From IMG/VR virus record IMGVR_UViG_2529292726_000019: a stretch of DNA of 46,731 nucleotides; one strand, given 5' to 3'. The notes under the pieces were generated by a model. That model ran no database searches, was not told the DNA's origin, and worked only from the letters and a program-made list of their open reading frames with translations. Below, one piece after another: positions 1 through 20,658 of the stretch (position 1 is the stretch's first letter; each line of letters starts with the position of its first letter). Position numbers and translations under genes: made by a program. The stretch comes from a virus (taxonomy: Duplodnaviria; Heunggongvirae; Uroviricota; Caudoviricetes).

Positions 1-204
1 TGTTGGTGTCAGAGCCGGCCTCTCTTTCAACAGAGGAACAAGCATGCTGTCCCACACAGCTTCCAGAGGATCTTTGCGTGTGCGCCAGTGCCGAACACTG
101 TTTTTTGCCCACTCTCCTTTTTCGATCCGACGACCAGAACGGACTGAGATACCAGCCTTCATGGCCGAGATATGCTGAGTTATACCTTTCTTACGCTGAG
201 TCAT
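1..204 (-). CDS. istA: IstA-like transposase, N-terminal fragment (ORF runs off the window start)
   Basis: Minus-strand ORF with ATG at 204-202 translating MTQRKKGITQHISAMKAGISVRSGRRIEKGEW..., an HTH-like N-terminus. Assignment rests mainly on the adjacent IS21-like terminal repeat. Confidence 0.35.
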   Translation of the reverse strand, partial: MTQRKKGITQHISAMKAGISVRSGRRIEKGEWAKNSVRHWRTRKDPLEAVWDSMLVPLLKERPALTPT

Positions 205-338
205 ATAGTAACTGACCTGAGAAGTATTGAGCGTCACGCCATTTCCTGTTGGATCATGTAAATGACACTCAGGTTACAAAACCGGCCAGAATAATCGGCG
301 CCAGGCGGACTGAGTTATTGTCGTCTCATAGAGAGGAT
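1..338 (-). mobile_element. IS21-family insertion sequence, partial left-hand copy: terminal inverted-repeat region (about 205-338) plus 5' end of istA
   Basis: Plus 281-338 is about 70% identical to the reverse complement of plus 46362-46425 (cggccag..ata..ggcgc..cgtct..atag..gga), as expected for the IRL and IRR of one IS type. The right-hand copy carries an IstB-like ORF. Confidence 0.45.
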
Positions 339-679
339 TTAAGCCCGGCAATTTCACGATCTTTGCTGGCAATAATCGTCTCACTTTTGTTACCGTCATC
401 AGTTTCTTGAGTCTCGCTCACCATATCCAAAGTCGCTTGCAACTTATCAGCTCTCTCTTTTTCAGCAAGGTAATGAACACCGAAATGGTGTGCCAAAGCT
501 ACAATCTGAGTTGGCTCTTCAAAGGTGGAATTAAAATTAAGTATTGTAAACAGTCTCTCAAATATGGAAACGTCTTCTATTCCTCGAAGAATGGCTAACA
601 TTTTGACCAGTTCATTAGCATCCATTTCTTCGAATAAGGCGTTTTGTTCATCAGCTATTGCTTTGCATTTCTCGCACAT
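326..679 (-). CDS. hypothetical protein (117 aa)
   Basis: ORF preceded by the conserved start region (AAGGAAAACAC-ATG) and the upstream AAACAAGTTGTTTT motif. Its 3' end abuts the IS terminus. Confidence 0.5.
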   Translation of the reverse strand: MCEKCKAIADEQNALFEEMDANELVKMLAILRGIEDVSIFERLFTILNFNSTFEEPTQIVALAHHFGVHYLAEKERADKLQATLDMVSETQETDDGNKSETIIASKDREIAGLKSSL

Positions 680-976
680 GTGTTTTCCTTAATGCTTAAA
701 CAAGTTGTTTTCTTATTGGTTTTATTGTGATGTGGCATAAAAGGGGAGCAAGCTAAACGTAAAGGTGCAAACTCTCTATTTCGGTCAACGAAATACAAGG
801 GCCATTTGGCCCTTGTCATTAACACTTTGCTTTACGAACTAACGGATAAGCGAAGTAGATCGCCAAACCAATGAGGACGCCATCAGAAATGACAGACATC
901 ATCTTTCCCGTAAAATCCACCAACACCGCCATCACCAGAAGAGCAATGACGATCACAAGCCGGAATCTCTCAAGCA

Positions 977-1402
977 TTAGAGATAAGCATCCAGTGACAA
1001 CTGAAGCGCCTGGGCGATCTTTTTCAGTGCCTGCTCTTCTTGTTCACCAATGCCGTCCTGATCGGCAATATCAAGGCACAGACACAGAACATCGACCGCC
1101 TCTGGAGTACCCGCAATATCAGACAGCTCACGAATAGCTTGTGCATTAGCAGAACGAGGGGACGCTTCGTAACGAGCACGGATATTGGCGCTCATTTGGG
1201 CAATCTCACCAGCAAACGGAGAAAACGCAGGCAGAGCTGCAATTGTTTTCTCAAGAATGGAAATTTCCTTTGCGTCGCATGTGCCATCGGCATAGGAGAT
1301 CATGTACGCGCCCCACACGGTGGCTTCAACCGCATCTCGGTTCTCCATTTTTTTGACCTCGATAACAGCTTTACGAGTTTTCTTTTTGAATAAACCTAAC
1401 AT
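977..1402 (-). CDS. hypothetical protein (141 aa), possibly TerB-like
   Basis: ORF with conserved start region and upstream AAACAAGTTGTTTT motif. The TerB-like call is a weak impression from an acidic helical sequence. Confidence 0.5.
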   Translation of the reverse strand: MLGLFKKKTRKAVIEVKKMENRDAVEATVWGAYMISYADGTCDAKEISILEKTIAALPAFSPFAGEIAQMSANIRARYEASPRSANAQAIRELSDIAGTPEAVDVLCLCLDIADQDGIGEQEEQALKKIAQALQLSLDAYL

Positions 1403-1495
1403 GTGCTTTCCTTTTGTTATTTGTTAAAACAAGTTGTTTTCTAGTTACATGAATTGCTTACGAAAAGACGGTCAATGCATATGCACTAACAACCG

Positions 1496-1684
1496 TCAGA
1501 AATAACCAAGTACCGAACCGACTGGAAAAACAAAAATCCCAACAACACGAGCCAAGGTCATACCAGCCTGAAACTGGAGATCACCAGAGCAAACGAGTTT
1601 TACAATGTTCGATACCCAACCGGCGGCCATGAGGGCAAGAATTGCCAGCCAAATTTTTCCAAAGTGATTTGAAAACCAGTTCAT
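1496..1684 (-). CDS. small membrane protein (62 aa)
   Basis: Two hydrophobic segments (WLAILALMAAGWV, VVGIFVFPVGSVLGYF); start overlaps the upstream ORF stop. Confidence 0.4.
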   Translation of the reverse strand: MNWFSNHFGKIWLAILALMAAGWVSNIVKLVCSGDLQFQAGMTLARVVGIFVFPVGSVLGYF

Positions 1685-1693
1685 ACAACCGCC

Positions 1694-2188
1694 TTAGTCA
1701 CAGCATGATCCTGAGTAACTGGATGAACTTGAGGTATCGCATCCACCGCCATCCCATCCAGAGTGACAGGACGCTCCACTGGAGTGGTGGTAATTGTCGT
1801 CGACGAAGGTGTGGTGGTGGATGAATCCGGCATCAAAAGGCTCTGACCGGCTGGAACGGCTACCGTCGCCAGTGAAACTATAATGAGAACGTAGGCCATT
1901 GGTTTCAGCCTCTTTCTTTGAAAATTTTCCATTCGAACTGTCCTTGTTGTTTTTCTCCTTCACTAAAGGCCGTGCATTTTTCGCTTCGCGTGAAGAACCA
2001 GAGGCAACAATCGCCCCCACGTTCGCAACAACTGACGCTTGATTATCTAAACGTTCATTCAGCAACCGAACGGTAGTCTCTAGTTCATCAAGGCGTGACA
2101 TAACACGACCGCTAAATAATTCGGCCAAAATTTGACGTAAAGAACGAGGACGTTTAGTTACAGAAGTGAAATAGGTTTGACGTGCCAT
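1694..2188 (-). CDS. hypothetical protein (164 aa); 3' half overlaps an alternative-frame ORF (1681-1932) with a signal-peptide-like N-terminus
   Basis: Long ORF whose C-terminal half is low-complexity and Cys/Ser-rich. The other frame encodes MAYVLIIVSLATVAVPAGQ and is ATGA-coupled to the next gene. Confidence 0.35.
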   Translation of the reverse strand: MARQTYFTSVTKRPRSLRQILAELFSGRVMSRLDELETTVRLLNERLDNQASVVANVGAIVASGSSREAKNARPLVKEKNNKDSSNGKFSKKEAETNGLRSHYSFTGDGSRSSRSEPFDAGFIHHHTFVDDNYHHSSGASCHSGWDGGGCDTSSSSSYSGSCCD

Positions 2189-2217
2189 GTGGACTCCATC
2201 CAGTGTCAGAAAGAGTT

Positions 2218-2239
2218 GCGGCTGGCGATTGCCAGCCGC
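2218..2239 (-). terminator. GC-rich hairpin (gcggctggc-gatt-gccagccgc) downstream of rnh
   Basis: Perfect 9-bp stem in the intergenic region between rnh and the next gene. Confidence 0.35.
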
Positions 2240-2336
2240 CTTTCTCGTTCCATCCTGGAACTGTGTCTTACCGACACATTGTCATCCTGACGCCGATAAG
2301 ATACATGATTTAAAATGATAGGTAAACACTTACTTA

Positions 2337-2927
2337 CTATTTATTATAAACAAAACCAATATCTTTCTTGTGAGGCATATCTGCTGCTGAAAAAGCTGCG
2401 ATCTTCGCGAGTCGATCACATATTTCATTTTCACGATGCCCGGCGTGACCTTTAACCCACTTCCAGCGAACATTATGTCGACTTGCGGCCTCATCCAGAC
2501 GCTTCCACAGATCAACATTCTTTACCGGTTTTTTGTCAGAAGTCATCCATCCATTGCGTTTCCACCATTTCATCCACTGTGTCATGCCGTTTTTCAGATA
2601 CTGGCTATCAGAGTGCAAAATAACGTTGCATGGATATTTCAAACGCTCCAGCCCGATAAGTGCCCCCATCATCTCCATGCGGTTATTGGTGGTGCTATGA
2701 AAACCATCTGAGAACTCGCGTTCCTCACCACGATACTGGAGAACGATACCGTAACCGCCCGGGCCACCCGGATTTTTAAGGCAAGAGCCATCACTAAAGA
2801 TTTTCACGGTTTTAAGCTGGGGATTGAACTCTACGACAGGCGTTGTGGGATTGGTGCGGGGGGAATTTTTGTTTTTGGCTTTTTTGCGAGTTTTTGCTTG
2901 CGATCGGGCTGGTGTCTTCGTCGTCAT
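2337..2927 (-). CDS. rnhA: ribonuclease HI
   Basis: Motifs VKIFSDGSC...GGYG and ...HSDSQY...[20 protein letters not shown] match the RNase H catalytic core. Start chosen at MTTKTP (ATG 2927-2925) with an AGGAG Shine-Dalgarno; it carries a basic N-terminal extension of about 40 aa. Confidence 0.85.
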
Positions 2928-3509
2928 ATAAACTCCTGAATCAAGCGCCGCGCCGATTTTTCCTCGCGCGTGCGCACACGCGTGCGTGTTAATAATTATT
3001 AAAATAAACAAATTACTTCCCAGAACAGGTTTTTATAAACCTGAACTGAACGAACGAAGTGAGTGAAGTTCACCTCGAACGAAGTGAGAGGTTGTCTTTT
3101 CAGGTAATACTCTCCCAGGGAGGTGAGTATAAAAATCTCTCACCAACCTGGTCGTTTCATAACCTGAAAAGTTATGGTCTAAGTCTACTGCCAGCTTAGA
3201 CTTGGGAAGTTATGGATGACAGCACCCCAGAACCGAGATCTTCCCACACTTTATGAAGGGGAGTACTGGATTCAACCTCTCGAAACACCCCAGACTCGAC
3301 AATCATAAAGTGACCCTTGTCTCTGCTCACTTTGGTTCCCCCTTCCCCGACACCTAAACGGCACCAGTTCTACGCTGGTAGTGAGCTTTTTTAAACCTGA
3401 CGCCAGTGACGCTTACCCCCACCCATCAGGTCGAGTCTCCAGTCTACGACTGGAAACTATCAGATCTTAGCACTTACAATTCACTTTATGAATAGTTTGT
3501 ACTTATCTA

Positions 3510-3764
3510 TCATTGTGATTGATTATTTTCTCTACCATGTAGTTGAACATTCAAGGCAAACACCTCATTGATCAACTCACCTAAAAGCTGTTCAACAAGT
3601 TCGCGATGCTCGCCAAGATGCAAGCACTTAATTGCCCATTCGTACAAGTTGAAAGCCTGCTCACGATCTTTCATCATTTCACGAGCCTGGGCCAGAAAAT
3701 CGCTCTCTACGAGCGCAACGACATTAGTCGGGTATGACATGTTGGTTTCCTTAAAGTGGTTCAT
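3510..3764 (-). CDS. hypothetical protein (84 aa)
   Basis: ORF with a start-region-like sequence upstream. Confidence 0.45.
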   Translation of the reverse strand: MNHFKETNMSYPTNVVALVESDFLAQAREMMKDREQAFNLYEWAIKCLHLGEHRELVEQLLGELINEVFALNVQLHGRENNQSQ

Positions 3765-3925
3765 AAAATCGATTTTAAAGCGTCTGGGAAGGGGCTCTAG
3801 TGGATTCTGTAGTGATGTTCAGGTCTGGAGTCTCTGATACAAAACAGCCTTCTTCCGTATATTAATAATTAATATGTAGTTATTTATATATACAGAAGCA
3901 GGCTAATTACAGACACCAGAACAAA

Positions 3926-4519
3926 CTAAGCAGCCTTCTTTGATGGTCTTTTTTTCCTGATCACATTCGCAGGATCATACCCTCCCAGACTTTTCATGAC
4001 GTCCAAAGGGATCTTGCTTATAGAGTGCCCAGCGTCCTGACAGAATCCTCGAAAAACAACGAGCATACTGCCACCTGGGTTGATGTTTACTTCTACCTGA
4101 CCCAGATTTACGTCAGGCTCGACAAACGCTACGCGGCCACCAGACAGAATAATCGTCTCATTCGCACACTCTGTTGCACGCTCATACCACTTTGTATCTA
4201 GGGATTGAGGAATTAGCATCACTGTTGTAACTCCACGAGCCTGCTCACGTATAGCCGCATCAATCCAGGGGGAGATTTTGGAGTAGGGTGGATTGAGGAA
4301 GGCAATTGTACCTGGCTGTCCCCATTCAGATTTCAAAGCATCACGCTCAACGCCTATGAAATTAGGCAGCTTTGCATTGTCCTTGTTGCAGGCAACGTCA
4401 ACATCAAATGTCACTCCAAGATAACGTTGAATGGCAGAAAACAGCCAGTCAGGTGTTCTCCAGAGGTCACGAAGAGAGTTGTCGCGCTTTCGCTGTTTGA
4501 TTTTTTCGGCTGCAATCAT
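3926..4519 (-). CDS. DNA N6-adenine methyltransferase (phage Dam-like)
   Basis: N-terminal WRTPDWLF and catalytic NPPYS motif typical of phage Dam-like N6A methyltransferases. GATC specificity is not provable from sequence. Confidence 0.8.
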   Translation of the reverse strand: MIAAEKIKQRKRDNSLRDLWRTPDWLFSAIQRYLGVTFDVDVACNKDNAKLPNFIGVERDALKSEWGQPGTIAFLNPPYSKISPWIDAAIREQARGVTTVMLIPQSLDTKWYERATECANETIILSGGRVAFVEPDVNLGQVEVNINPGGSMLVVFRGFCQDAGHSISKIPLDVMKSLGGYDPANVIRKKRPSKKAA

Positions 4520-4585
4520 CTTCTTTCTCGATAGGTAAGTAAATACCTATTTTTGCATTTGATTTTATGTCTGGCAATCAAATAA

Positions 4586-4662
4586 AACGCGCCAGAAATG
4601 CAAACGAGAAGCTCTCTGGCGCGTTTTTGTGGTGCTGGGTATGTGATTGGCTTACCCAGCAC
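4586..4662 (-). terminator. two tandem perfect hairpins (11-bp and 10-bp stems) flanked by T-runs on both strands
   Basis: aacgcgccaga...tctggcgcgtt followed by gtgctgggta...tacccagcac, downstream of the 269-aa gene. Confidence 0.45.
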
Positions 4663-4702
4663 TATAAAGCTCTCTATGGGCTTTATTTTCAGTAGGGGAA
4701 CG

Positions 4703-5512
4703 TCATCCAATAGTGTACTCCGCGACAAACTTCTTAACGATCGGTGATTCTTCGTTCAATGTTAGATTTCCACCGTCTCTAACGGCAATTCCTGTCGCTG
4801 GAAATACAGCCATCATTTGCCCAGCCTGAGTTGACGCAGTGTTAAGCGGATACGGTTTTTCTGGATTGCTCATTAAAGCAATCTTAATACTATTACTTGT
4901 AGCCTTCTTTTCTGTGAGAAGGTGTCTCATGGAAATTACCGTGTAAACACTAATATCTGGACCTCCGCTAAACCAATTAAGAAGGTTTAATATCTTATCC
5001 TTTGCTTTGACAGGCGCGTTATCGTAAGCGTCTAAGAAAATATCTTTTTCTAAGCCCGCTTTATTGAAAAACGAATCATCTTTATCACTTAAAGTAAAAC
5101 GAGGACCTCTTGCAGTACGAGCTTTTTTATTTGTATTGCTATCATTTGACTGTTGAACTTTTAATTCATCATTAACCTCAACACACTCTTCAACCTCAAT
5201 AAATCCCAATTGTTCTGGCTCGTTTTCGGCAGCTTCAACACTTTCAGCGTTAATTACGTTTATAGGCTCATGCGCTAACTCCAACTCATTTAAAGCAGAG
5301 CTGAAATCACCTGTTTTTTCTTCATTGAACAGTTCTTCGGCAACATCATCAGAACTGATGGCTACGCCAGCATCTAGGCCGAGCAGCAGATCGTCAATAT
5401 CATCAGTATTTTCAACCTGTGCAGCTTTTTTTACTGGTTCATCAAGTGATTGCAACATGGCTGTCAGCTCGTCCAGATCATCATTTGTCATTACATTTTC
5501 AACCGAACTCAT
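4703..5512 (-). CDS. hypothetical protein with strongly acidic N-terminal half (269 aa)
   Basis: Asp/Glu-rich N-terminal ~110 aa (DDLDEL..., DDIDDLLLGLD, EVEECVEVNDE). Confidence 0.5.
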   Translation of the reverse strand: MSSVENVMTNDDLDELTAMLQSLDEPVKKAAQVENTDDIDDLLLGLDAGVAISSDDVAEELFNEEKTGDFSSALNELELAHEPINVINAESVEAAENEPEQLGFIEVEECVEVNDELKVQQSNDSNTNKKARTARGPRFTLSDKDDSFFNKAGLEKDIFLDAYDNAPVKAKDKILNLLNWFSGGPDISVYTVISMRHLLTEKKATSNSIKIALMSNPEKPYPLNTASTQAGQMMAVFPATGIAVRDGGNLTLNEESPIVKKFVAEYTIG

Positions 5513-5672
5513 GTAAGTCTCCTTCTGTTTAGTTGCATTTGCGTTTCGATGGCTACATTTTGACTAAATCTATCAGGCGGAAAAGTATTAAATACAGGCA
5601 GGAAATGATTGAAAGGCGACTGTTCTTTAAAAGAAAGCCTGCTTCAAACTCTCTTTAAAGCAGGCTTTTGTT

Positions 5673-6221
5673 TTACACAATTTCAGAGGGTAATTTAAAA
5701 AATCCGTATTTATTACGTGCCTTAAAGAAGCATTGCATCATTAAGTTTGTGTCATATAAGGCACTATGTGCTTTGGCATGATCGTATATAAAGCCAAGAG
5801 AGAAGGCCAACTCTTCAAGGCGGGGACGTTTACCGTCTTCTGTGGCCCACAGGGAAAATAGAGTGTCAATCAATGGGATGTCTGGAAGCGAAAAACCGTA
5901 ACTTTTCAGCTCATGCCTAATAAACGGAATATCGAACGCTTCGCCGTTGTGGGCTATCCAAATATCGGAAGAAGAGAGATACGAAGCGACAGATGAAGCG
6001 TGATCGGCTAGTAACGGCTCGGCGGCTAAATCTTCAAGACTGATGCCGTGTACCGCTTGCGCTTTCGGATCGATACTGCGACGCGGGTTGAACCGCATTA
6101 CAAAACTATCAACCATTGTCTGTGTCTCAATTTCGTACTTCACCATTGCGATTTCAATGATTTTATGGCCTGAGAGGAAATCAAGACCTGTTGATTCGAT
6201 GTCCACCCCTGTAGCAATCAC
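5673..6221 (-). CDS. DnaQ-like 3'-5' exonuclease (DEDDh family)
   Basis: Exo motifs DIESTG, HNGEAFDIPF and HSALYD. Confidence 0.7.
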   Translation of the reverse strand: MIATGVDIESTGLDFLSGHKIIEIAMVKYEIETQTMVDSFVMRFNPRRSIDPKAQAVHGISLEDLAAEPLLADHASSVASYLSSSDIWIAHNGEAFDIPFIRHELKSYGFSLPDIPLIDTLFSLWATEDGKRPRLEELAFSLGFIYDHAKAHSALYDTNLMMQCFFKARNKYGFFKLPSEIV

Positions 6222-7012
6222 TTTTTATCTCCTTTTACTGGTCGTTTGGACGGTGTGAAGATGGCAGCTTCAACATCCCACCCCCTCAAGATTCGCTGCG
6301 AGATAATGGTCGCAGTCAAGCCAACCTCTCTAGCCCATTCGGTAATTCGCTGAGTTCTGCCGCGACACTCGATCAGACGCTTACTATCTCGGTTGGCATA
6401 CGTGTCGACGCTGGCGTTAAGCGCGCGATCTAATGGCCACCCTTTCTTGATTCGATAGTGAAGAGTTGATGTCTGAATCCCGGCTCTTTTAGCCCATTGT
6501 GAGAGAGTCAGCTTTTCCCCCTTATGCTCCAAAATTAAGTTTGAACGCGTGTTATTGGCCTGTTCTTCAAAAGTCGCCCATCTGCAATTTTCAGGTTCGT
6601 AGTCACCATTCACATCTTTGCGATCAAGAGACATCCCCTCTGGTCGCTCTCCCATGTCAGCATAAAAGTTTTCAAATATTTGCCACCGCTCGCAGACTTT
6701 GATACCTCGGCCGCCATACCACTTATAGGCGTGATGGGTTGGTTTTTCACATCGTTCCCGCATACCCAGCCATATACGATAAATTGGCGTTTTACTCATA
6801 CCATGAGGCTTTACGCTACGGCGATGTGCGTTGTAGACACAGCCACACGATATTGTCGCCCCGTGATTTAGCTTCCCGTAACTAACCAGGCAGGTGTTGC
6901 CGCAATCGCAGATGCAATCCCAAAGTCGCCCTTGTTTGTTTGAAATACCGGAATATTTAAGTGCAACCAACTTTCCAAAACGTTTACCTGTTATGTCTAC
7001 CGGTTGTCCCAT
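6218..7012 (-). CDS. putative HNH/homing-endonuclease-like DNA-binding protein
   Basis: YRIWLGMRERC...YKWYGGRGIKVCERW motif common in phage homing-endonuclease-like proteins, plus Cys cluster CICDCGNTC. Family recalled by motif only. Confidence 0.4.
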   Translation of the reverse strand: MGQPVDITGKRFGKLVALKYSGISNKQGRLWDCICDCGNTCLVSYGKLNHGATISCGCVYNAHRRSVKPHGMSKTPIYRIWLGMRERCEKPTHHAYKWYGGRGIKVCERWQIFENFYADMGERPEGMSLDRKDVNGDYEPENCRWATFEEQANNTRSNLILEHKGEKLTLSQWAKRAGIQTSTLHYRIKKGWPLDRALNASVDTYANRDSKRLIECRGRTQRITEWAREVGLTATIISQRILRGWDVEAAIFTPSKRPVKGDKK

Positions 7013-7021
7013 TACTACTCC

Positions 7022-7441
7022 TTACAACTTCTTAGCGCCCTTAAGTAGTGCGCTACGTACAAATTGAGCCGCTTTTTTCAAAGTTTCTTCACTGGTTTCA
7101 CAGACAATCGGATCTTTCCACTTACCTGACGCAGTGTTGAGAATATTGATTTGGTTGCTATCCAGACAAACAGAGATATAAAGCACCGTGCCACCAGCCA
7201 GCATCAAATGCATAGGAAACAGAGGCTTTTTACTGCCTTCACTGAACTGAGACATGGCGATGTTAATGGCTTCACCTACTTGTGCGCCAACAAGCCCCTG
7301 CGCAGTTTCGAATATGGCACGAATAGCCAGACGAGCCTCTCGATCGCTCATAAGAGACCGGGAATGTTCGTCCGCTACACGAATCAAAGCCTCTGTTGTT
7401 TTCCGATCCAGTTCATCTTCAAGCAACATTTCACTAAACAT
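7022..7441 (-). CDS. hypothetical protein (139 aa)
   Basis: ORF in an operon-like run; no recognisable motif. Confidence 0.45.
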   Translation of the reverse strand: MFSEMLLEDELDRKTTEALIRVADEHSRSLMSDREARLAIRAIFETAQGLVGAQVGEAINIAMSQFSEGSKKPLFPMHLMLAGGTVLYISVCLDSNQINILNTASGKWKDPIVCETSEETLKKAAQFVRSALLKGAKKL

Positions 7442-7502
7442 TTTTTATCCTTAACCCATTTTGAGAGTTTTATTGTCGCAATGTCGAAGAGGCGAACAAT
7501 TT

Positions 7503-8147
7503 CTAATGAACGGTTACTCGGCCACAGAACCGGTTTTCTATCTTTTCTACAGCGTTATCTAGCATTCTCATCACTGATCTGGCTCTTGCTTCAACCGTGC
7601 GATATCGGTTGGAAACGACGAAGGTTTGCAGATCCCCCCTTTGCGGATGCAGGTGAATTTTTGTCAGTTCCCCGCACATCAACGCATCAATACGAGCGAC
7701 ATACAGACGGTCTAATGATGCTCGTTGTGATCGCAAGTAATCTCGCTCTGAGAGAGCGACTCCCGGGCGTAAGCCAGCAATGGCGTTAAAGTTTGAAATA
7801 GCAGTTTTGTGGCAAAACTTTTCGATATCGAGGGCTAACTCAATACACCGATCTTCATTTGTATGGCCGACCAAATCCAACGTGTAGGCCATAACATCAG
7901 CAGGTGTGCGATCGATAACAAAGCCTTCAACACCACGTGTAAGTAGCTCTATATGCTTTGCTATTTCCATTTGAATCTGAAGCCGCTCATATAGAGGCAT
8001 AGACTCACCTACTCGAACACCGAGGCGGCTCATCAAACTTCCGACACCAGCATCCACGTAAGGGATTCCGTAATGTTTGTCGATATATTTAGCCAGGGTT
8101 GTTTTCCCACTGCCCTGAGCACCAGTGATCCCAATCCGGTAATCCAT
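7503..8147 (-). CDS. P-loop kinase, probable deoxynucleoside monophosphate kinase
   Basis: Walker A GITGAQGSGKTT at the N-terminus; sits among thymidylate-synthesis genes. Confidence 0.5.
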   Translation of the reverse strand: MDYRIGITGAQGSGKTTLAKYIDKHYGIPYVDAGVGSLMSRLGVRVGESMPLYERLQIQMEIAKHIELLTRGVEGFVIDRTPADVMAYTLDLVGHTNEDRCIELALDIEKFCHKTAISNFNAIAGLRPGVALSERDYLRSQRASLDRLYVARIDALMCGELTKIHLHPQRGDLQTFVVSNRYRTVEARARSVMRMLDNAVEKIENRFCGRVTVH

Positions 8148-8623
8148 TACGACCTTCTGTATACGATCTGCGAAAAGCCAGGCTCTTCCTCGCTGGCTCG
8201 TTGGGTATAAGCTGTTTCAACAGGCACAAAGCCTAAGTTACGCATCATGCTTGCCGGGAAGAATGCATCGGCGTTTGGTACATCAACGCCGATGTGGGAG
8301 AGCCAAATCTCTTCAACATGCGGCATGAATAGCGAGTAAATTTGTTCCCCGCCAATCACCCACACTGGCTCTGGTAATCGCAACACATCATCCACACCAG
8401 CAGGGTAGAATCCATTTGGTACAAAGCCATGAGAGCGCGTCAAAACGAGGTTATGACGCTCTGGAAGAGGGCGTTTGAGACTTTCCATCGTTTTACGCCC
8501 CATAACGACAGTGGCGTTTTTGGTGAGTCTCTTAAATAGCTTCAGATCGGTAGAACAACGCCAGGGCAGTTCGTTCGCTATGCCGATCTCATAGTTACGG
8601 CCAACAGCAGCTATCATCTTCAT
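8147..8623 (-). CDS. folA: dihydrofolate reductase
   Basis: MIAAVGRNYEIGIANELPW...VMGRKTMESL matches the DHFR N-terminal signature; ATGA-coupled to the kinase gene. Confidence 0.8.
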   Translation of the reverse strand: MKMIAAVGRNYEIGIANELPWRCSTDLKLFKRLTKNATVVMGRKTMESLKRPLPERHNLVLTRSHGFVPNGFYPAGVDDVLRLPEPVWVIGGEQIYSLFMPHVEEIWLSHIGVDVPNADAFFPASMMRNLGFVPVETAYTQRASEEEPGFSQIVYRRS

Positions 8624-9033
8624 TTGCTCACCTCATAGATGACCGGTCTATGATGAGAGTCAGCTAAAGCGGCACGGAGTCGAGGATCGTGCACCAGCGC
8701 AGCGATAAGCAGATCGCCTTTATGCTCCGCTAATGTGCGCTTAATATGCTTCTCATAACTGGTGCTATTCGGTACGAGGTGAAGCCAGTCGTAATCAACA
8801 CCAAAATCTTTCAGCCATCGTTTAGTGGGCGCTTCAAGAGTTTCAGAGCGGCTACTGATAAGCACCACTTCAGCCCCTGAGCGAGCAAAACCACGCAACA
8901 TACGGCTGGGGGGGAAAATGAGTTCATCACCGGCAATGAATTGGCCTGCATCCGAGTCAGATACAGATTTACGATGGCTGGTATTTGCCAGCACACCTTC
9001 AATTTCGCATAAGACATACATACCTCTTGCCAT
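8620..9033 (-). CDS. hypothetical protein, possibly HAD-like phosphatase fold (non-canonical motif I)
   Basis: Start set at internal MARGM (ATG 9033-9031) to avoid a 95-nt overlap with thyA. Motif CEIEGVL sits where HAD enzymes have DxDG, so activity is doubtful. Confidence 0.35.
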   Translation of the reverse strand: MARGMYVLCEIEGVLANTSHRKSVSDSDAGQFIAGDELIFPPSRMLRGFARSGAEVVLISSRSETLEAPTKRWLKDFGVDYDWLHLVPNSTSYEKHIKRTLAEHKGDLLIAALVHDPRLRAALADSHHRPVIYEVSK

Positions 9034-9034
9034 A

Positions 9035-10165
9035 TCACACCGCCACTGGAACCTTGATCCACGGTAGAGGGGCATAGCCAAGAATAAGAATCTCGTCCCA
9101 TTTGAAATCATCCAGCTCAGACCATTCATTAGGGAATATAACGACCGGATCTGAATGCTCTGGAGCCTGTCGTTGCATTAGCTCACACACACCTTCCATG
9201 TGGTTGTTGTACAAATGCACGTCAAAGCCAAAATGCACAAATGCACCGGCCATGTGACCCGTAATCTTCGCGAGAAAATGAGTGAGAATGCCATAGCCAG
9301 CAATATTGAATGGCATACCAACAAAAGTGTCTACGCTACGCTGTACGAGGCAGGAGTTGAGGATGCGTTTGGGGATTCCAAGTTCATCCAGTTCAGTTTC
9401 AGTAACACTGCCGTCCATCTCCAGATCGTATAGCATCTTGGTGTAGATAGACTCATAACCGAGGCGACTGTGTTGAAGACCAATGTCAGTTGCCATCGTT
9501 AAACGGGTTTCAAAATCCAGTTCACGACTCCACAAAGAGAAGACAAAGTGGCAAGGGGGCAGTTTCATATCCTCAAGCTCGCCTACGTTCCATGCGTTAA
9601 GCATGATGCGACGATCGGTAGGGTTCGTGCGCAGTGTATCGACAATACGCTGTAGCTGATCGATTTCACGGGACAGCACTACGCGATCTTCACTGATACC
9701 CAGGTATCCCTCGACTTTGTACCCGCGTTCACGGAAAGTAGCGATCTTGCTCAGATATTCACTATGGCTCACGATGCGGGTATCTTCCCATCGACGCCAC
9801 TGCTTACCGTAAACCGGCCCCAAATCGCCATTCTCATCGGCCCATGCATCCCAAATCTTAACGCCGTTATCCTTGAGAAATTGGATGTTGCCCGTGCCTT
9901 TCAGATACCACTCAAGTTCGACAAGCAGTGGCTTAAGATTTACCGCCTTTCCAGAAATAAGCGGCACAGTCCCACCAGTAAGCATGTAGTAAGAGGGAAC
10001 GTAGCAGGTGCTTAAAGTACCAGTGCCTGTGCGATCATCAGCCTGCACGCCGCTTTTAAGCACCGTCTCAATAACTTTTGCATACGATGCGTTTGTTCCC
10101 TGACCGTTCGTATGCTCACGATTCAAAAGGAGTGACACAAAAACCTCACAAAGATAAGTAACCAC
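9035..10165 (-). CDS. thyA: thymidylate synthase
   Basis: DDRTGTGTLS, LKPLLVELEWYLKG, GDLGPVYGKQWRRW and catalytic-Cys region MKLPPCHFVFSLW. Confidence 0.85.
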   Translation of the reverse strand: MVTYLCEVFVSLLLNREHTNGQGTNASYAKVIETVLKSGVQADDRTGTGTLSTCYVPSYYMLTGGTVPLISGKAVNLKPLLVELEWYLKGTGNIQFLKDNGVKIWDAWADENGDLGPVYGKQWRRWEDTRIVSHSEYLSKIATFRERGYKVEGYLGISEDRVVLSREIDQLQRIVDTLRTNPTDRRIMLNAWNVGELEDMKLPPCHFVFSLWSRELDFETRLTMATDIGLQHSRLGYESIYTKMLYDLEMDGSVTETELDELGIPKRILNSCLVQRSVDTFVGMPFNIAGYGILTHFLAKITGHMAGAFVHFGFDVHLYNNHMEGVCELMQRQAPEHSDPVVIFPNEWSELDDFKWDEILILGYAPLPWIKVPVAV

Positions 10166-10222
10166 TTATTCATTGCGTGAGTTTACATTTATTGAGAGAA
10201 CAAGACCAGACAGATAAAAAAA

Positions 10223-10241
10223 TGGTGGCCATAGGCCACCA
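10223..10241 (-). terminator. hairpin tggtggcc-ata-ggccacca flanked by A/T runs (bidirectional)
   Basis: Perfect 8-bp stem with T-run on the minus strand after the 289-aa gene. Confidence 0.45.
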
Positions 10242-10309
10242 AAAACGAATAGTTGTTTCAGAAATTTAACGCGCCAGCGCAATATACACAGATAGATAAC
10301 TACCTACAA

Positions 10310-11179
10310 TTATTTTTTGATCATTCCGTACATTGCTGAGGCTTTAGCTTGCTCAACAAAGGAGGATAAATCGACATCACTATAGGTTGGAGACTTCAGA
10401 ATCTTTCCATCGGAAATTCGAAAACCGATCATCTTATCGGTGCCATCAGCATGGCGAAATCCCAGGTCAGAAGAGTCGTATTTGCAGTTGGCCACAGCAT
10501 GGCGACGCTCTTCGGCATCTGCAGGCCATAATTTTGTCATGTTGGACCGATGAATTTCGCCAACCAGCTCGACGACATTGATACCGAGAAAATCAGCCAG
10601 TCGATAAGTCATCATGCACGCCACATAGATTTTGTTCATTACACGGCGCAGTTCCTGAATCAGCTCAGAATCCTTAACAGTCTTCTTCTCAAGTTTATCT
10701 GCCAGCTCTTCGAGCATACATGACGCCTCACGAGCTTCCTGAAATGGCATTGCCATATCATCGAAAACAGTGTTACCAGGCACAAAAATTGTCTGCATAA
10801 AGCGATCAATGCTCTGTTCCTGCGTGTAATAAGTCATGCCGGTAGAAATACCACCTTTGATGGCGACCATCGTACCAACACCAACGTATAAAAAGTCGGC
10901 CATTGCATCCAGCAGTTGCTCAATATCCCCATTCATTGCGGCTGGAATACCTTCCACTACAGCTTCTTCATGAATCAGGCTTGCACGGAGACGAAGCAGC
11001 TCTGGTGTCGGCATAACGCGTCTCGGATGCTGGAAGAGTTCATGAAACTGATCGACCATCTTGTAAATACTTTCAGTGGCTACACCATGGCCTTCATGCA
11101 ACTCATATGGTTCTGGCTTAAATCCAATGAGTCGATCGGTGGCAAGTTTCAGGTGGTCAGTCAGTTTGGTAAAGTTCAT
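10310..11179 (-). CDS. hypothetical protein (289 aa), possibly all-alpha NTP pyrophosphohydrolase (MazG-like)
   Basis: Helical protein in the nucleotide-metabolism block; MazG-like assignment is a weak motif impression. Confidence 0.45.
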   Translation of the reverse strand: MNFTKLTDHLKLATDRLIGFKPEPYELHEGHGVATESIYKMVDQFHELFQHPRRVMPTPELLRLRASLIHEEAVVEGIPAAMNGDIEQLLDAMADFLYVGVGTMVAIKGGISTGMTYYTQEQSIDRFMQTIFVPGNTVFDDMAMPFQEAREASCMLEELADKLEKKTVKDSELIQELRRVMNKIYVACMMTYRLADFLGINVVELVGEIHRSNMTKLWPADAEERRHAVANCKYDSSDLGFRHADGTDKMIGFRISDGKILKSPTYSDVDLSSFVEQAKASAMYGMIKK

Positions 11180-11256
11180 GCTAGTTTTGCTCCTTCTTAA
11201 TTCTTGTGATCCATTGTGGCCCAGCGTTGCCAGGCCACATAATGCTTTGTATCGGT

Positions 11257-12399
11257 TTACAGGTCTGCAAACTGGCTTAGAGAAGCCTTATCCACGGTAG
11301 AATCGATCTGACCTACCAGATATGTGCTTTGCTCTGCCTCTTGTGGTGCAATTTGCAGTGTGTCGGTTAACAACCACTTGTTCATCCAGACCAGCGGATC
11401 AGTGGTAACTTCTGGAAATAAAGCCTTCAGGCCAAGACGATTCATAGCCAGATTGGTGCGGTATTTTACATAGGTCTTCAGAATATCCGCGTTTAAACCA
11501 ATCATCGAACCGTCTTTGAAGAGATAGTCTGCCCAGTTCATTTCTTGTTCGGCGACTGATTTCATGGTGTCGCAAATGACGTTTTCTTCATCAGCAGCAA
11601 TCTCTTTCCACAATAAACCTTCGCGACCGGTACGCATGAAGCGGATCATGCGTTCAGTTCCTTCGCAATGCAGAGCTTCATCACGGGCAATAAAGCGCAT
11701 AATTTTGGTGTTACCCTCAAGCAACTTCCGTTCACCAAAGGCAAACGTACATGCAAAACTTACGTAGAAACGGATCGCCTCAAGCGCATTAATGGACACC
11801 AACGTGCGGAAAAGCTGACGATGCAAAGGGTATGGCCCCCAGCCATATTCATTTACGTACAGACGCTCAAATTCCTTCTCACCTAACGACTGGCGCTCGC
11901 AGGTCATCCCATAAAGCCTGTCATATTCAGCAGAGATACTGATCGCTCGGTTGATGATTTCTTCATCCGTAACAATACCGTCAAAAACAATGCTCGGATC
12001 GTCCACCATGCCACGAATAATGTGGGTGTAGCTGCGGCTATGGATAGTCTCAGAGAAAGACCACGTTTCAACCCACGTTTCCAGTTCAGGAATAGAGATA
12101 AGCGGCAGCAGCGTTGCATTTGGACTACGTCCCTGAACTGAATCGAGTAACGTTTGATAACGGAGATTGCTCAGAAAAATGTGACGTTCGTGGTCCCGCA
12201 GCTTCGTGTTGAAGTCGATACGATCGCTCGAAATATCAACTTCTTCCGGCCGCCAGAAGAAAGACAATTGACGTTCAATCAACTTTTCAAAATCACGGTA
12301 TTTTTGCTGATCGTAACGTGCCACGTTGACAGATTGTCCGAGGAACATAGGCTCTTTGGTTGCATCATTAGCACCCAAACGGAACGTTGAATATGACAT
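11257..12399 (-). CDS. nrdB: ribonucleotide reductase class Ia beta subunit
   Basis: FFWRPEEVD, diiron/tyrosyl-radical region and overall length; conserved start region upstream. Confidence 0.9.
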
Positions 12400-12481
12400 G
12401 TGTTTTTCCTTTTTCTTTTTTGGTGCGTTTAAACAAGTTGTTATCTTATGTGTTTAAACAAGGCTTACAAATCAAAGAGAA

Positions 12482-12500
12482 GGTGGGGATATCCCCCACC
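12482..12500 (-). terminator. hairpin ggtggggatatcccccacc downstream of nrdA
   Basis: Perfect stem followed by a T-rich run on the minus strand. Confidence 0.45.
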
Positions 12501-12505
12501 ATATG

Positions 12506-14821
12506 TCAGATTTTGCAGGCTCCGTCGCACTCATCTTCTGGCTCGACGGCTACAGCTTGCGCCAATGGATTCTGCGGTTCGTCGTCATCACGCTTTCCTG
12601 CACCATCTCTGGTGTTGTGGTAGTAAAGCGTTTTAACTCCCATCTTGTAGGCGAGAAGCAAATCTGACAGTAGCGTCATCATTGGGACTTTATCGCCTTC
12701 AAAGCGAGAAGGGTCATAGTTGGTATTGGCTGAAATAGCCTGGTCAAAGAACTTCTGGATGATCGCCACCTTTGTCAGATAGCCGCGGTTGTCCGGCATA
12801 TCCCACAGGTATTCATACTGTTCCTTCAGTTTTTCAAACTCAGGCACGACCATCTTAACGATGCCGTCCTTAGAAGATTTCACCGACACCGGGCCACGAG
12901 GCGGTTCGATGCCGTTGGTGGAATTAGTGATCTGGCTGGAAGTCTCGCATGGCATTTGTGCCGTCAGTGTGGAGTTGCGAAGGCCGTATTTTGCAATACG
13001 TTCACGCAGTTCTTCCCACGGCATCTTTAACTCAAAGTTGGTTTCGCCACTTTCGTCTAATGAAGAACGGTAATGGTCGATCGGCAACTGACCAATTGCG
13101 TACTTGGTCTGCTCAAACCAGTCACACTCACCTTTTGCTTCAGCAAGTCGGCAGCTGGCATCAAGAAGGTAATACTGGATAGCTTCGAATGTTTCATGCA
13201 CCAGTTTATTGCCAGCGGTATCAGAATAACGAACGCCATTCTTTGCCAGGTAATAAGCAAAGTTGGTTACACCAATTCCCAAGCTACGACGAGCTTTGGC
13301 AGGCACTTCGGCTGCCTCCATCGGATAGTCTTGATAATCCAGTAACGAATCCAGTGCAGCAACGGCATAGAACGCCACCTCTTTAAGAGACTCCAGTGAA
13401 CGGATGGCTCCGAGGTTAAAAGCGGATAAAGTGCATAGCGCGATCTCACCGTTCGGGTCGTCGGTAAATGCCAGTGGACGGGTGGGTAGGGTGATCTCCA
13501 TACACAGGTTTGACTGGCGGACAGGTGCAAGAGCAGGAATGAAAGCGCCATGCTCATTAATATGATCGACGTTCGCAATATAAATTCGGCCCGTGGACGC
13601 TCGTTCCTGCATCAGAGATGAGAACAGCTCAATGGCAGGTACTGACTTCTTGCGAATTGAATCATCGGCTTCGTATTTATGGTACAGCTTTTCAAACAGC
13701 TCCTGGTCTGTGAAGAAGGCTTCGTACATATCAGGCACATCATGCGGGCTGAACAGAGTGATGTTCTCGCTTCTGACGAGTCGACGGTACATTAGACGGT
13801 TACTCATGACGCCGTAATCAAGATGGCGAACGCGGTTTTCATCAATACCACGGTTATTTTTCACCACCAGCAGACTTTCAACTTCAAGATGCCAGATCGG
13901 GTAAAACGCTGTTGCTGCGCCACCACGAACACCACCTTGCGAACAAGATTTAACAGCCGTCTGGAAATGCTTCAGGAATGGAATAACTCCGGTATGGGTG
14001 GCTTCACCATTGCGGATCTCGCTGCCCAGCGCACGGATACGGCCAAAACCAATACCAATTCCAGCACGACGTGAAACGTAGTCGATAATTGCGGCTGAAG
14101 CTGCACTAATCCCTTTCAGACTATCGCCAGACTCAATCAGCACACAACTGGAGAACTGACGGGTTGGAGTACGGACGCCGGCCATGATTGGTGTGGGCAG
14201 AGACAGTTTGAACGTACTTGTAACGTCATAGAAACCTTTGACCATCTCCATACGTGTTTTGCCAGCGCAGTCGTCTTCCCAATTCTGGAACAGACACATG
14301 CCTACCAGCATATAGATATGTTGCGGCCCCTCATGAATCTCACCAGTAACACGGTTTTGAACGAGGTATTTGCTTTGCAACTGCACCGTAGCTGCATAGC
14401 CAAAAAGATCGTCACGTTTCGGCTTAATGTAATTGCCGAGTTCTTCGATCTCTTCAAACGAATAATGAGTCAGCAAATCCTTGTCATAAACGCCCTTGTT
14501 AACGTTCTTGACAATGTGTTGGTAGAAGTTCGGATAGTCGTAACGACCGAAGGCATCTTTGCGGATTTTAAAAATGTTCAGGCGGGCAGCCACCTGTGAG
14601 TAATTTGGTGCTTCTGGTGAGATCAAATCAGCGGCAGATTTAACCAAAGCCTCATGCAACTGGCTGGTGGTCATCCCATCAAAAATGCTGGCCGCAGCTC
14701 CCATTGCTACAGCGGATGCGCTTACACCACGAATGCCTTCTACGCCATACATTACGACGCGGTTGTATTTTTCTTCGGATAACGGCTCTGTTTGGCCGTT
14801 ACGTTTTACGATGCTTATCAT
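12506..14821 (-). CDS. nrdA: ribonucleotide reductase class Ia alpha subunit
   Basis: 771 aa with ATP-cone N-terminus and catalytic-site region (NLCMEI, C-terminal redox Cys pair CDGACKI). Confidence 0.9.
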   Translation of the reverse strand: MISIVKRNGQTEPLSEEKYNRVVMYGVEGIRGVSASAVAMGAAASIFDGMTTSQLHEALVKSAADLISPEAPNYSQVAARLNIFKIRKDAFGRYDYPNFYQHIVKNVNKGVYDKDLLTHYSFEEIEELGNYIKPKRDDLFGYAATVQLQSKYLVQNRVTGEIHEGPQHIYMLVGMCLFQNWEDDCAGKTRMEMVKGFYDVTSTFKLSLPTPIMAGVRTPTRQFSSCVLIESGDSLKGISAASAAIIDYVSRRAGIGIGFGRIRALGSEIRNGEATHTGVIPFLKHFQTAVKSCSQGGVRGGAATAFYPIWHLEVESLLVVKNNRGIDENRVRHLDYGVMSNRLMYRRLVRSENITLFSPHDVPDMYEAFFTDQELFEKLYHKYEADDSIRKKSVPAIELFSSLMQERASTGRIYIANVDHINEHGAFIPALAPVRQSNLCMEITLPTRPLAFTDDPNGEIALCTLSAFNLGAIRSLESLKEVAFYAVAALDSLLDYQDYPMEAAEVPAKARRSLGIGVTNFAYYLAKNGVRYSDTAGNKLVHETFEAIQYYLLDASCRLAEAKGECDWFEQTKYAIGQLPIDHYRSSLDESGETNFELKMPWEELRERIAKYGLRNSTLTAQMPCETSSQITNSTNGIEPPRGPVSVKSSKDGIVKMVVPEFEKLKEQYEYLWDMPDNRGYLTKVAIIQKFFDQAISANTNYDPSRFEGDKVPMMTLLSDLLLAYKMGVKTLYYHNTRDGAGKRDDDEPQNPLAQAVAVEPEDECDGACKI

Positions 14822-14838
14822 GTATCACCAAATAAAGA

Positions 14839-14860
14839 GGGCCACTAAATATAGTGGCCC
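14839..14860 (-). terminator. perfect hairpin gggccact-aaatat-agtggccc, 18 nt upstream of the nrdA start codon
   Basis: 8-bp GC-rich stem followed by a T-rich run on the minus strand. Could equally be a 5'-UTR regulatory structure for nrdA. Confidence 0.4.
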
Positions 14861-14894
14861 ATGTTAATAGATAAGCACTTACCTATCAATGAAA

Positions 14895-15464
14895 TCAAAT
14901 GAGAGACTTAAGAACATCGCGCACCTGGCGGAACTGATCTGTTTGCATACCGGTATGGATGGCAGCCACCGCATCAGCCAAATGTTCGTTTTTGTTCACG
15001 AGAACATCCTGTCCAGATTGCTTACGACGCAGCCACGGTGCTTTAGGGTGTTTTTTCGTAGCCCACTGGATAATCTCTTCTTTCGATGTAGTAAGTTTAT
15101 TGCCGACAAAATGCTTGATTTCGTTTGGAGTAACCTGGATCAATGGCTTATCCACACACGCAAGTACACCGATACAAATACCGTAAGACGTCTGCGAACG
15201 AGAGTTTTGGCTCCCAACCGGTAGCTCACAAAAAACCATATTTGCCTTATCAATGATTGGCTTCGCAACACGCCATATTTCACTGGCTCGGCGCAGATCG
15301 TCACTGTTCACACGAACGGTCTTTTTGTTACTCCCCGCTTTAGTCTCAACAAGAGTAAGGCCGTGAATCTCAAGTTCGTCCGTCTCAAGGTCTAAAGTGC
15401 CCACAGCAAGCCCAAAGTTGCTCATTGAGGGATCAACACCAACTACGCTGATTTTTTTACTCAT
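14895..15464 (-). CDS. putative RuvC-like Holliday junction resolvase
   Basis: N-terminal VGVDPSMSNFGLAV, ELPVG and C-terminal NEHLADAVAAIH resemble RuvC catalytic motifs. Confidence 0.5.
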   Translation of the reverse strand: MSKKISVVGVDPSMSNFGLAVGTLDLETDELEIHGLTLVETKAGSNKKTVRVNSDDLRRASEIWRVAKPIIDKANMVFCELPVGSQNSRSQTSYGICIGVLACVDKPLIQVTPNEIKHFVGNKLTTSKEEIIQWATKKHPKAPWLRRKQSGQDVLVNKNEHLADAVAAIHTGMQTDQFRQVRDVLKSLI

Positions 15465-15473
15465 ATAGTCTCC

Positions 15474-18123: not shown

Positions 18124-18352
18124 ATAACACCTTTGATACCGTGTGTTAGCTTTTGACCTTCTTTCAATCTGAACTCCGTATGCGCCGGGAAGGATCTGCG
18201 CCTCAATACGCCTTTTCTGGTTAACCTTCCAAGATAAAACGCTACGGGATTTCCTTGTGGCGGGTAGGGCTTGTGAAACATCACCGTCTGGCCTCGTTCA
18301 AGTCTTTTCATCGTGATGGCAAAGTCTCGAAAGCTCCCATAACGACTTTGCC

Positions 18353-20337: not shown

Positions 20338-20419
20338 ATGTCATTTTTCTGTGATTGTTAGCCGAGGCAACGATAACCCACCAGGTGCGCCGAAGGTAGT
20401 AAATGCCTGTTTTAATTAT

Positions 20420-20648: not shown

Positions 20649-20658
20649 AGGTGTCCAC

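What the first reader, a model, noticed from the sequence alone, without database searches (positions are those of the whole stretch)
1..338. Both window ends are IS21-family termini in direct orientation
Plus 281-338 and the reverse complement of plus 46362-46425 align at about 70% over roughly 55 bp. The left end carries the start of an IstA-like ORF running leftwards and the right end carries the C-terminus of an IstB-like ORF, so two copies of one IS in the same orientation bracket the 46-kb phage segment. This is either a composite, IS-bounded translocatable unit or a contig that broke inside a repeated IS. The left terminus abuts the stop of the 117-aa gene (326-679).
Basis: partly seen in the sequence, partly recalled or inferred. 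Interest (0 to 1): 0.6.

Follow-up and report, generated by a model that had tools for sequence, protein, structure and literature searches.

The report
Contig broken in two ISEc10 copies
The two ends of the window are the outer few hundred bases of two copies of ISEc10, a well-known E. coli insertion sequence, which landed separately in a phage-plasmid and made a draft assembly break there, so the finding is ordinary.

Summary
Window 1-330 is the istA-proximal (IRL) end of ISEc10, an IS21-family element, and 46372-46731 is its istB-proximal (IRR) end. Both lie on the minus strand, so the copies are in direct orientation. The 50-bp termini match at 34/50, against a background maximum of 26/50.

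The window is the complete draft contig APXK01000056.1. The 46,041 bp between the IS ends is the replication and nucleotide-metabolism arc of an SSU5-like E. coli phage-plasmid.

The closed sibling plasmid p503046_111 (CP025888.1, 111,957 bp) matches the window end to end with 11 mismatches. It carries two identical 2,410-bp ISEc10 copies at exactly these junctions. Each copy has its own 6-bp target duplication, CTCCAC and GAGAGG, and both empty sites are present in an IS-free relative.

These are therefore two independent simple insertions. The 46 kb did not move as a composite transposon, and this is not one IS in a circle. The downstream half of the gene split by the left copy is annotated in the same strain, so the 61-kb virion arc is present and the contig simply broke at the repeat.

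The 117-aa ORF is a 188-aa gene cut by the insertion, and its stop codon lies inside the IS.

Verdict: already known, low interest.

The parts
1..330 (-). Last 330 bp (IRL-proximal, istA side) of an ISEc10 copy, cut by the contig end
   Evidence: 100% identical to positions 2081-2410 of the 2,410-bp ISEc10. The end at 330 was fixed by flank comparison of four full copies and by the copies in the sibling plasmid.
1..237 (-). 5' part of istA (79 codons, GTG start at 237 as annotated in RefSeq copies; an in-frame ATG at 204)
   Evidence: The annotated istA of L004-L007 starts at the position equivalent to window 237. NF033546 gives E=6e-5 for the fragment and 227 bits for the full protein.
281..330 (-). 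Left terminal inverted repeat (IRL), with two 18-bp sub-repeats at 306-323 and 283-300, 23 bp apart
   Evidence: 34/50 match to IRR. Sub-repeats CGACAATAACTCAGTCCG and CGCCGATTATTCTGGCCG.
331..336 (.). GAGAGG, one copy of the 6-bp target-site duplication of the left IS copy
   Evidence: In p503046_111 the copy at 89221-91630 is flanked by GAGAGG on both sides. The IS-free relative has a single GAGAGG.
326..679 (-). 117-aa ORF: the N-terminal 117 residues of a 188-aa hypothetical protein gene cut by the IS, with the stop codon (326-328) inside the IS
   Evidence: Alignment with the intact 188-aa orthologue of pIso00225_02 shows one substitution over the 117 residues and an end exactly at the junction. 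Annotated as EC2875150_5326.
331..46371 (.). 46,041-bp replication and nucleotide-metabolism arc of an SSU5-like phage-plasmid (repB with iterons, dnaE, recA, nrdAB, thyA, DHFR, dam, rnhA, integrase, four tRNAs, primase)
   Evidence: Collinear at 96.7-99.6% identity with pIso00225_02, 91306 through the record origin to 26128. 99.98% identical to p503046_111. 80% identical to Salmonella phage SSU5 and 97-99% identical to Escherichia phages Cyrano and CMS-2020a.
46366..46371 (.). CTCCAC, one copy of the 6-bp target-site duplication of the right IS copy
   Evidence: In p503046_111 the copy at 25715-28124 is flanked by CTCCAC on both sides. The IS-free relative has a single CTCCAC, 9 bp beyond the end of the dnaB-like gene.
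46372..46731 (-). First 360 bp (IRR-proximal, istB side) of an ISEc10 copy, cut by the contig end
   Evidence: 358/360 identical to ISEc10 positions 1-360. The two differences, at 46701 and 46707, lie within 31 bp of the contig end.
46372..46421 (+). Right terminal inverted repeat (IRR), with two 18-bp sub-repeats at 46379-46396 and 46402-46419, 23 bp apart
46437..46731 (-). 3' part of istB (C-terminal 97 residues plus stop)
   Evidence: PF01695 IstB_IS21 at 100.6 bits. NF038214 (IS21-like element helper ATPase IstB) at E=3e-34.

Best explanation
The window is one complete contig of a short-read draft E. coli genome, APXK01000056.1, strain 2875150 going by the protein names. The contig ends on both sides inside a repeated insertion sequence, ISEc10 (IS21 family, 2,410 bp, istA-istB).

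The host molecule is an SSU5-like phage-plasmid of about 112 kb that has received two separate ISEc10 insertions in the same orientation:
- One lies inside a 188-aa hypothetical gene. Its target duplication is GAGAGG, window 331-336.
- The other lies in the 147-bp gap between the dnaB-like helicase gene and the primase gene. Its target duplication is CTCCAC, window 46366-46371.

The two copies divide the circle into two arcs. The 46-kb replication arc is this contig. The 61-kb arc carrying virion and partition genes is on another contig. The assembler could not bridge the 2.4-kb repeats.

Shown here: the identity of the IS, its exact ends, both junctions, the two-copy structure and per-copy target duplications in a near-identical closed plasmid, and the empty sites in an IS-free relative.

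Inferred: that the source strain has the same full two-copy structure. This rests on near-identity to the closed plasmid and on the other half of the split gene being annotated in the same strain.
For: - The 117-aa junction ORF is found on APXK01000056.1, whose contig length of 46,731 equals the window. It is also found on the closed plasmid CP025888.1 and on a 46,100-bp Logan contig that stops 29 nt into the IS.
- The window aligns to CP025888.1 from 91301 through the record origin to 26074 with 11 mismatches and no gaps. A full ISEc10 query finds two 2,410-bp copies there, at 25715-28124 and 89221-91630, on the same strand.
- The two copies are identical to each other. Each is flanked by its own 6-bp direct repeat, CTCCAC and GAGAGG. 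pIso00225_02 has the uninterrupted sites ...gttCTCCACgctt... and ...gttaGAGAGGattt....
- Four unrelated ISEc10 copies give the same IS ends, TATTAG...CTCATA, with target duplications of 5-6 bp.
- In IS-free relatives the two window flanks are never adjacent. In pIso00225_02 they lie 65 kb apart.
- The 54-aa downstream remnant of the split gene (ENB17693.1, EC2875150_5207) and the 117-aa upstream part (ENB17354.1, EC2875150_5326) are both annotated in E. coli 2875150.
Against: - The two-copy structure in this particular strain therefore rests on protein names and on a sibling plasmid from another strain.
- The contig runs 330 and 360 bp into the repeat, further than a pure k-mer break would. 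I cannot explain this without the reads. The two mismatches 25-31 bp from the right contig end suggest a mixed or variant repeat consensus there.
Confidence: 0.92

Rival explanations
1. Composite transposon: the two ISEc10 copies and the 46 kb between them moved into their present place as a single IS-bounded unit.
For: Two identical IS copies in direct orientation do bracket the segment.
Against: - In the closed sibling plasmid each copy carries its own 6-bp duplication on both of its sides. There is no single duplication at the outer ends of the pair.
- The bracketed 46 kb and the DNA outside it are collinear with IS-free relatives, in which both target sites are intact.
- The segment carries the plasmid's own repB and iterons.
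Confidence: 0.02
2. Deletion derivative: in the source strain the molecule is a mini-plasmid of about 48.5 kb, consisting of the replication arc plus one ISEc10. It would arise by homologous recombination between two copies or by intramolecular transposition. The contig would then be that circle, broken because other ISEc10 copies exist in the chromosome.
For: - The window alone cannot distinguish this structure from the two-copy structure.
- The arc carries repB and its iterons, so it could replicate.
- The two flanks do not share a target duplication.
Against: - The 54-aa downstream remnant of the split gene lies on the far side of the left IS copy, and it is annotated in the same strain.
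- A 99.98%-identical closed plasmid has both copies and the 61-kb arc.
- The partition-type genes (ParB-like) lie on the other arc.
Confidence: 0.05
3. Single IS in an otherwise intact circular molecule: the window is a circular contig opened inside one ISEc10.
For: One end carries the IstA start and the other the IstB end, as expected if a circle were cut inside a single IS.
Against: - The flanks are GAGAGG and CTCCAC, not one duplicated target.
- In relatives the two flanks lie 65 kb apart, and no plasmid in PLSDB has them adjacent.
Confidence: 0.01

Closest known systems
ISEc10 (IS21 family insertion sequence of E. coli)
   Same: - At least 99.4% DNA identity over both window fragments.
- The same ends in every full copy examined.
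- istA followed by istB.
- Imperfect 50-bp terminal inverted repeats containing doubled 18-bp sub-repeats.
- Target duplications of 5-6 bp.

   Different: Nothing of substance. The window holds only the outer 330 and 360 bp of the two copies. There are two base differences near the right contig end.
p503046_111 (CP025888.1), closed 111,957-bp E. coli phage-plasmid
   Same: End-to-end match with 11 mismatches, and the same two ISEc10 junctions. It is the only record in PLSDB holding these junctions.
   Different: It comes from a different strain, 503046, whereas the window's proteins are named for strain 2875150.
SSU5-group phage-plasmids (Salmonella phage SSU5; Escherichia phages Cyrano and CMS-2020a; pIso00225_02)
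   Same: Collinear replication arc with the same gene content. A large survey reports SSU5-group elements that differ only by gain or loss of insertion sequences (10.1101/2025.09.12.675607, legend of Fig. S9).
   Different: These relatives lack ISEc10 at both of these sites. None of the 5,426 complete RefSeq E. coli genomes has either junction.
Composite (IS-bounded) transposons such as Tn10 or Tn5 (from general knowledge)
   Same: Two copies of one IS flank a DNA segment.
   Different: - Each copy has its own target duplication.
- The enclosed DNA is native backbone that includes the replicon's origin.
- There is no evidence that the unit ever moved.

Membership tests
IS21 family / ISEc10 | Near-identity of the DNA to curated ISEc10 copies | tested here: met
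   The left 330 bp are 100% identical and the right 360 bp are 358/360 identical to a full 2,410-bp copy. RefSeq annotation under the matches reads 'IS21-like element ISEc10 family'.
IS21 family / ISEc10 | Two consecutive genes: istA (transposase) followed by istB (AAA+ helper ATPase) | tested here: met
   The window holds only the IstA N-terminus and the IstB C-terminus. The full copies at the same junctions in p503046_111 encode a 499-aa IstA (NF033546, 227 bits, cut-off 160) and a 251-aa IstB (PF01695, 209 bits).
IS21 family / ISEc10 | Imperfect terminal inverted repeats containing multiple internal repeats | tested here: met
   34/50 identity between the ends, against a background maximum of 26/50. 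Each end has two 18-bp sub-repeats 23 bp apart, with pairwise identity of 10-15 out of 18.
IS21 family / ISEc10 | Short target-site duplication (4-8 bp, from general knowledge of the family) | tested here: met
   6 bp at both copies of the sibling plasmid. 5-6 bp at four other copies. In the window only one copy of each duplication is visible.
IS21 family / ISEc10 | Ends terminating in 5'-TG...CA-3' (recalled as typical of the family, not verified against ISfinder) | tested here: inconclusive
   The ends defined by the flanks are 5'-TATTAG...CTCATA-3'. A CA lies two bases in from the IRL end, and a TG lies two bases in when that end is read from outside inwards. At the IRR end the corresponding bases are TT.
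Composite transposon | One target duplication at the outer ends of the whole unit and none at the inner ends | tested here: not met
   Each IS copy has its own duplication on both of its sides in the closed sibling plasmid.
Composite transposon | The enclosed segment is foreign to the surrounding replicon | tested here: not met
   The enclosed 46 kb is collinear with IS-free relatives and includes repB and its iterons.
Assembly break at a repeat | The sequence is a whole contig whose ends fall inside a multi-copy element | tested here: met
   The length of APXK01000056.1 equals the window length. The IS is present twice in the sibling plasmid. An independent Logan contig of the same arc stops 29 nt into the IS.
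Assembly break at a repeat | The rest of the molecule is present elsewhere in the same assembly | tested here: inconclusive
   The far-side remnant of the split gene is annotated under the same strain name. The contig that carries it could not be fetched.

The most novel reading that the evidence does not exclude
The two identical, directly repeated ISEc10 copies happen to separate the replicon arc (repB, iterons, DNA-metabolism genes) from the virion and partition arc. A single RecA-mediated crossover between them would give a plasmid-only derivative of about 48.5 kb and a non-replicating circle of about 63.5 kb. On that reading, this lineage is a caught intermediate in the conversion of a phage-plasmid into a plain plasmid. 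The same double insertion was found on three contigs (two NCBI assemblies and a Logan assembly; two of them are each reported from two samples). It is therefore a transmitted lineage and not a one-off event.
Probability: 0.06. Interest if true: 0.35.

Novelty: already known. Interest (0 to 1): 0.07.

Why it matters
It matters little. It shows how an IS that is multi-copy within one replicon fragments a draft assembly, and how the fragment can look like an IS-bounded mobile unit. The practical lessons are two. A window whose ends are the two opposite ends of one IS should first be tested as a contig break. Per-copy target duplications in a closed relative then settle the question. Biologically, the insertions disrupt one hypothetical gene and separate the primase gene from the helicase gene upstream of it. 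They also create a 2.4-kb direct repeat that could delete either arc. No consequence was tested.

Tried and rejected
- **Single insertion in a circle.** I joined the last 1,200 bp before the right IS to the first 1,200 bp after the left IS and searched PLSDB. No plasmid has the two flanks adjacent, so a single insertion in an intact circle is rejected.
- **Junction searches.** I searched both junctions in all complete RefSeq E. coli genomes and found none. In PLSDB only CP025888.1 has them.
- **A shared target duplication between the two window flanks.** There is none: GAGAGG versus CTCCAC.
- **Fetching the other-arc contig of the source assembly.** I did not use the search for homologous proteins for it. 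That tool returns cluster representatives, and the representative here is a 109-aa protein, which would not lead to the right contig by exact look-up.
- **Pfam on the IstA fragment.** Pfam gave no hit for the 79-aa IstA N-terminal fragment. NCBIfam did.
- **Wrong reading frames.** My first translations of the left end were in the wrong frame. They were corrected.

Full report
**What is at the two ends**

Read on the minus strand, the left end of the window encodes MTQRKKGITQHISAMKAGISVRSGRRIEKGEW.... The right end encodes ...VIVVDDLGYVKRDSAETGVLFELIAHRYERGSLVITSNHPFSMWG... followed by a stop at 46437.

- Window 1-340 matches DNA annotated as 'IS21-like element ISEc10 family transposase' (istA) in 870 of 5,426 complete E. 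coli genomes. 567 records reach 99% identity or more.
- Window 46340-46731 matches annotated ISEc10 istB in 699 genomes.
- The IstB fragment scores 100.6 bits on PF01695.
- The IstA fragment is too short for Pfam, but it gives E=6e-5 on NCBIfam NF033546. The full protein from a sibling copy scores 227 bits against a cut-off of 160.

**Exact ends of the IS**

I fetched four full ISEc10 copies from unrelated sites: CFT073, CUVET21-37, 118UI and a Tn3-bearing plasmid. Lining up their flanks gives the following:
- The element runs from TATTAGACGTCAAC... to ...TTGTCGTCTCATA and is 2,410 bp long.
- It is flanked by direct repeats of 5-6 bp: GACTC, GAGTAC, GATCAG and GGAGCC.

In the window the left copy therefore ends at 330 and the right copy begins at 46372.

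**The inverted repeat**

- The terminal 50 bp of the two ends match at 34/50 without gaps.
- The same 50-mer compared with 91,984 positions in the rest of the window gives a mean of 12.4, an sd of 3.0 and a maximum of 26.
- Each end contains two 18-bp sub-repeats 23 bp apart: 306-323 and 283-300, and 46379-46396 and 46402-46419.
- From general knowledge, this is the usual IS21-family arrangement of multiple terminal repeats, which serve as transposase-binding sites.

**What lies between the ends**

Window 329-46371 is collinear with the E. coli plasmid pIso00225_02 (NZ_CP095139.1), from 91306 through the record origin to 26128. There are seven aligned blocks at 96.7-99.6% identity.

The annotation of that record shows this to be the replication and nucleotide-metabolism part of a phage-plasmid. 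It carries RepB, DNA polymerase III alpha, RecA, NrdAB, thymidylate synthase, DHFR, Dam, RNase HI, an integrase, four tRNAs and the primase. The remaining 65 kb carries the DnaB-like helicase, tail, capsid, portal, terminase and ParB-like genes.

The phage collection places it in the SSU5 group. It is 97-99% identical to Escherichia phages CMS-2020a, Cyrano and PhiR41_1, and 80% identical to Salmonella phage SSU5.

**One IS or two**

If the window were a circle opened in a single IS, the two flanks would be adjacent in IS-free relatives. They are not.
- A query made by joining the two flanks never matched as one place in any of 404 related plasmids.
- In pIso00225_02 the two flanks lie 65 kb apart.

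**Source and sibling**

The 117-aa ORF at 326-679 runs into the IS, so its exact sequence marks this junction. An exact look-up found it on three contigs:
- APXK01000056.1 of GCA_000356245.1. Its length of 46,731 bp equals the window, so the window is a whole draft contig.
- CP025888.1, the closed 111,957-bp plasmid p503046_111.
- A 46,100-bp Logan contig that stops 29 nt into the IS. This is the behaviour of a short-k-mer assembler at a repeat.

The window aligns to p503046_111 from 91301 through the record origin to 26074 with 11 mismatches and no gaps. A full ISEc10 query finds two complete copies there, at 25715-28124 and 89221-91630, on the same strand.

The lengths add up: 46,041 + 61,096 + 2 x 2,410 = 111,957.

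**Two simple insertions, not a composite**

- In p503046_111 the two copies are identical to each other.
- The first copy is flanked on both sides by CTCCAC and the second by GAGAGG.
- The IS-free relative has the uninterrupted sites ...ggtgttCTCCACgcttatt... and ...atcgttaGAGAGGattt....
- A composite transposon that had moved as a unit would carry one duplication at its outer ends and none at the inner ends, and it would enclose foreign DNA. Neither holds here.

The structure could in principle still be mobilised or recombined. There is no sign that it ever has been.

**Does the source strain have the other arc?**

The window alone cannot tell a two-copy 112-kb molecule from a 48.5-kb deletion circle made of this arc plus one IS.

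The downstream remnant of the gene split by the left copy is a 54-aa ORF on the far side of that IS in p503046_111. By exact sequence it is annotated as EC2875150_5207 of E. coli 2875150. The 117-aa upstream part is EC2875150_5326 of the same strain. So the far side of the left copy is present in the source assembly, which argues against the deletion circle.

I could not fetch that contig. This step is therefore an inference, not a direct observation.

The two mismatches to ISEc10 in the right fragment lie at 46701 and 46707, 25-31 bp from the contig end. That fits a repeat consensus fraying at the end of a contig.

**Effects of the insertions**

- The left copy sits inside a 188-aa hypothetical gene. 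The window ORF reproduces its first 117 residues, with one substitution. The leucine codon spans the junction and the TGA at 326-328 belongs to the IS. The IS therefore does not abut a natural stop; it creates the stop.
- The right copy sits 9 bp beyond the end of the dnaB-like gene and 138 bp upstream of the annotated primase start at 46233. It separates the primase gene from the gene upstream of it.
- Whether primase expression or phage function is affected was not tested.
- ISEc10 is active in the laboratory, and new insertions next to lpp lower its expression 6- to 10-fold (PMC7482066). Effects on neighbouring genes are therefore plausible, but they are unproven here.

**How common**

- No complete RefSeq E. 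coli genome has either junction.
- In PLSDB only CP025888.1 has them.
- The junction ORF was found on three contigs, two of which are each reported from two samples. The doubly interrupted plasmid is therefore a small transmitted lineage.
- A survey of clinical Enterobacteriaceae notes SSU5-group phage-plasmids that differ only by gain or loss of IS elements (10.1101/2025.09.12.675607).

**Verdict**

The family assignment is correct. Of the two readings offered, the contig break is the right one. The element, the plasmid type and even this exact arrangement are already in public records. Interest is low.

Noticed in passing
window 20533-20638 and 21743-22292: Fourteen copies of an iteron (core GTATGCTGTCAGCGGT) lie in two clusters on either side of the repB gene. 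This is the plasmid replication origin and control region of the phage-plasmid (RepB annotation).
   Followed up: partly
window 40116-40813 (-): A cluster of four tRNA genes: Ser(tga), Thr(tgt), Tyr(gta) and Asn(gtt). They are annotated identically in the relative pIso00225_02.
   Followed up: partly
window 698-724, 1427-1450, 12431-12457, 23869-23890, 36267-36293; start-region motif at 1388, 12385, 19434, 23357, 28442, 32625, 34041, 46285: A palindromic motif, AAACAAGTTGTTT, recurs. On the minus strand it sits just upstream of a conserved leader and start sequence, AAAGGAAAAACACATG, at the heads of several gene blocks. It looks like a shared operator or promoter plus ribosome-binding region. 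A degenerate copy lies at about 46312-46340, between the right IS and an in-frame ATG at 46299 upstream of the annotated primase start.
   Followed up: no
window 2311, 4519, 10147, 19539, 24999, 41550, 45077 (direct); 28531, 44202 (inverted): A second dispersed AT-rich motif, of the form ATAAGTAAGTAnATACCTAT, recurs in intergenic positions on both strands. Its function is unknown (families D7, D11, D17, I10, I25).
   Followed up: no
window 8147-8623 (-): A DHFR gene differs by one residue out of 158 (I113V) from the protein annotated in pIso00225_02 as the trimethoprim-resistant dihydrofolate reductase DfrA51. A paper in the library describes dfrA50 and dfrA51 in phage-plasmids (PMC12217456, listed, not read).
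   Followed up: partly
window 5852-7016, 30195-30431, 38444-39322, 39536-39936, 40236-40545: These stretches do not align to pIso00225_02 by megablast, so they are small replaced or inserted segments of the backbone. All of them are present in p503046_111.
   Followed up: no
window 46701 and 46707: These are the only two differences from the ISEc10 reference in the right IS fragment (A for C and T for G). They lie 25-31 bp from the contig end. They could be a variant IS copy elsewhere in the genome or a consensus error at the end of the contig.
   Followed up: partly
L004-L007 and p503046_111 junctions: In five of six ISEc10 insertions examined, the target duplication starts with G next to the IRL end: GACTC, GAGTAC, GATCAG, GGAGCC and GAGAGG. 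The sixth is CTCCAC. This may reflect a weak target preference, but the sample is too small to tell.
   Followed up: no
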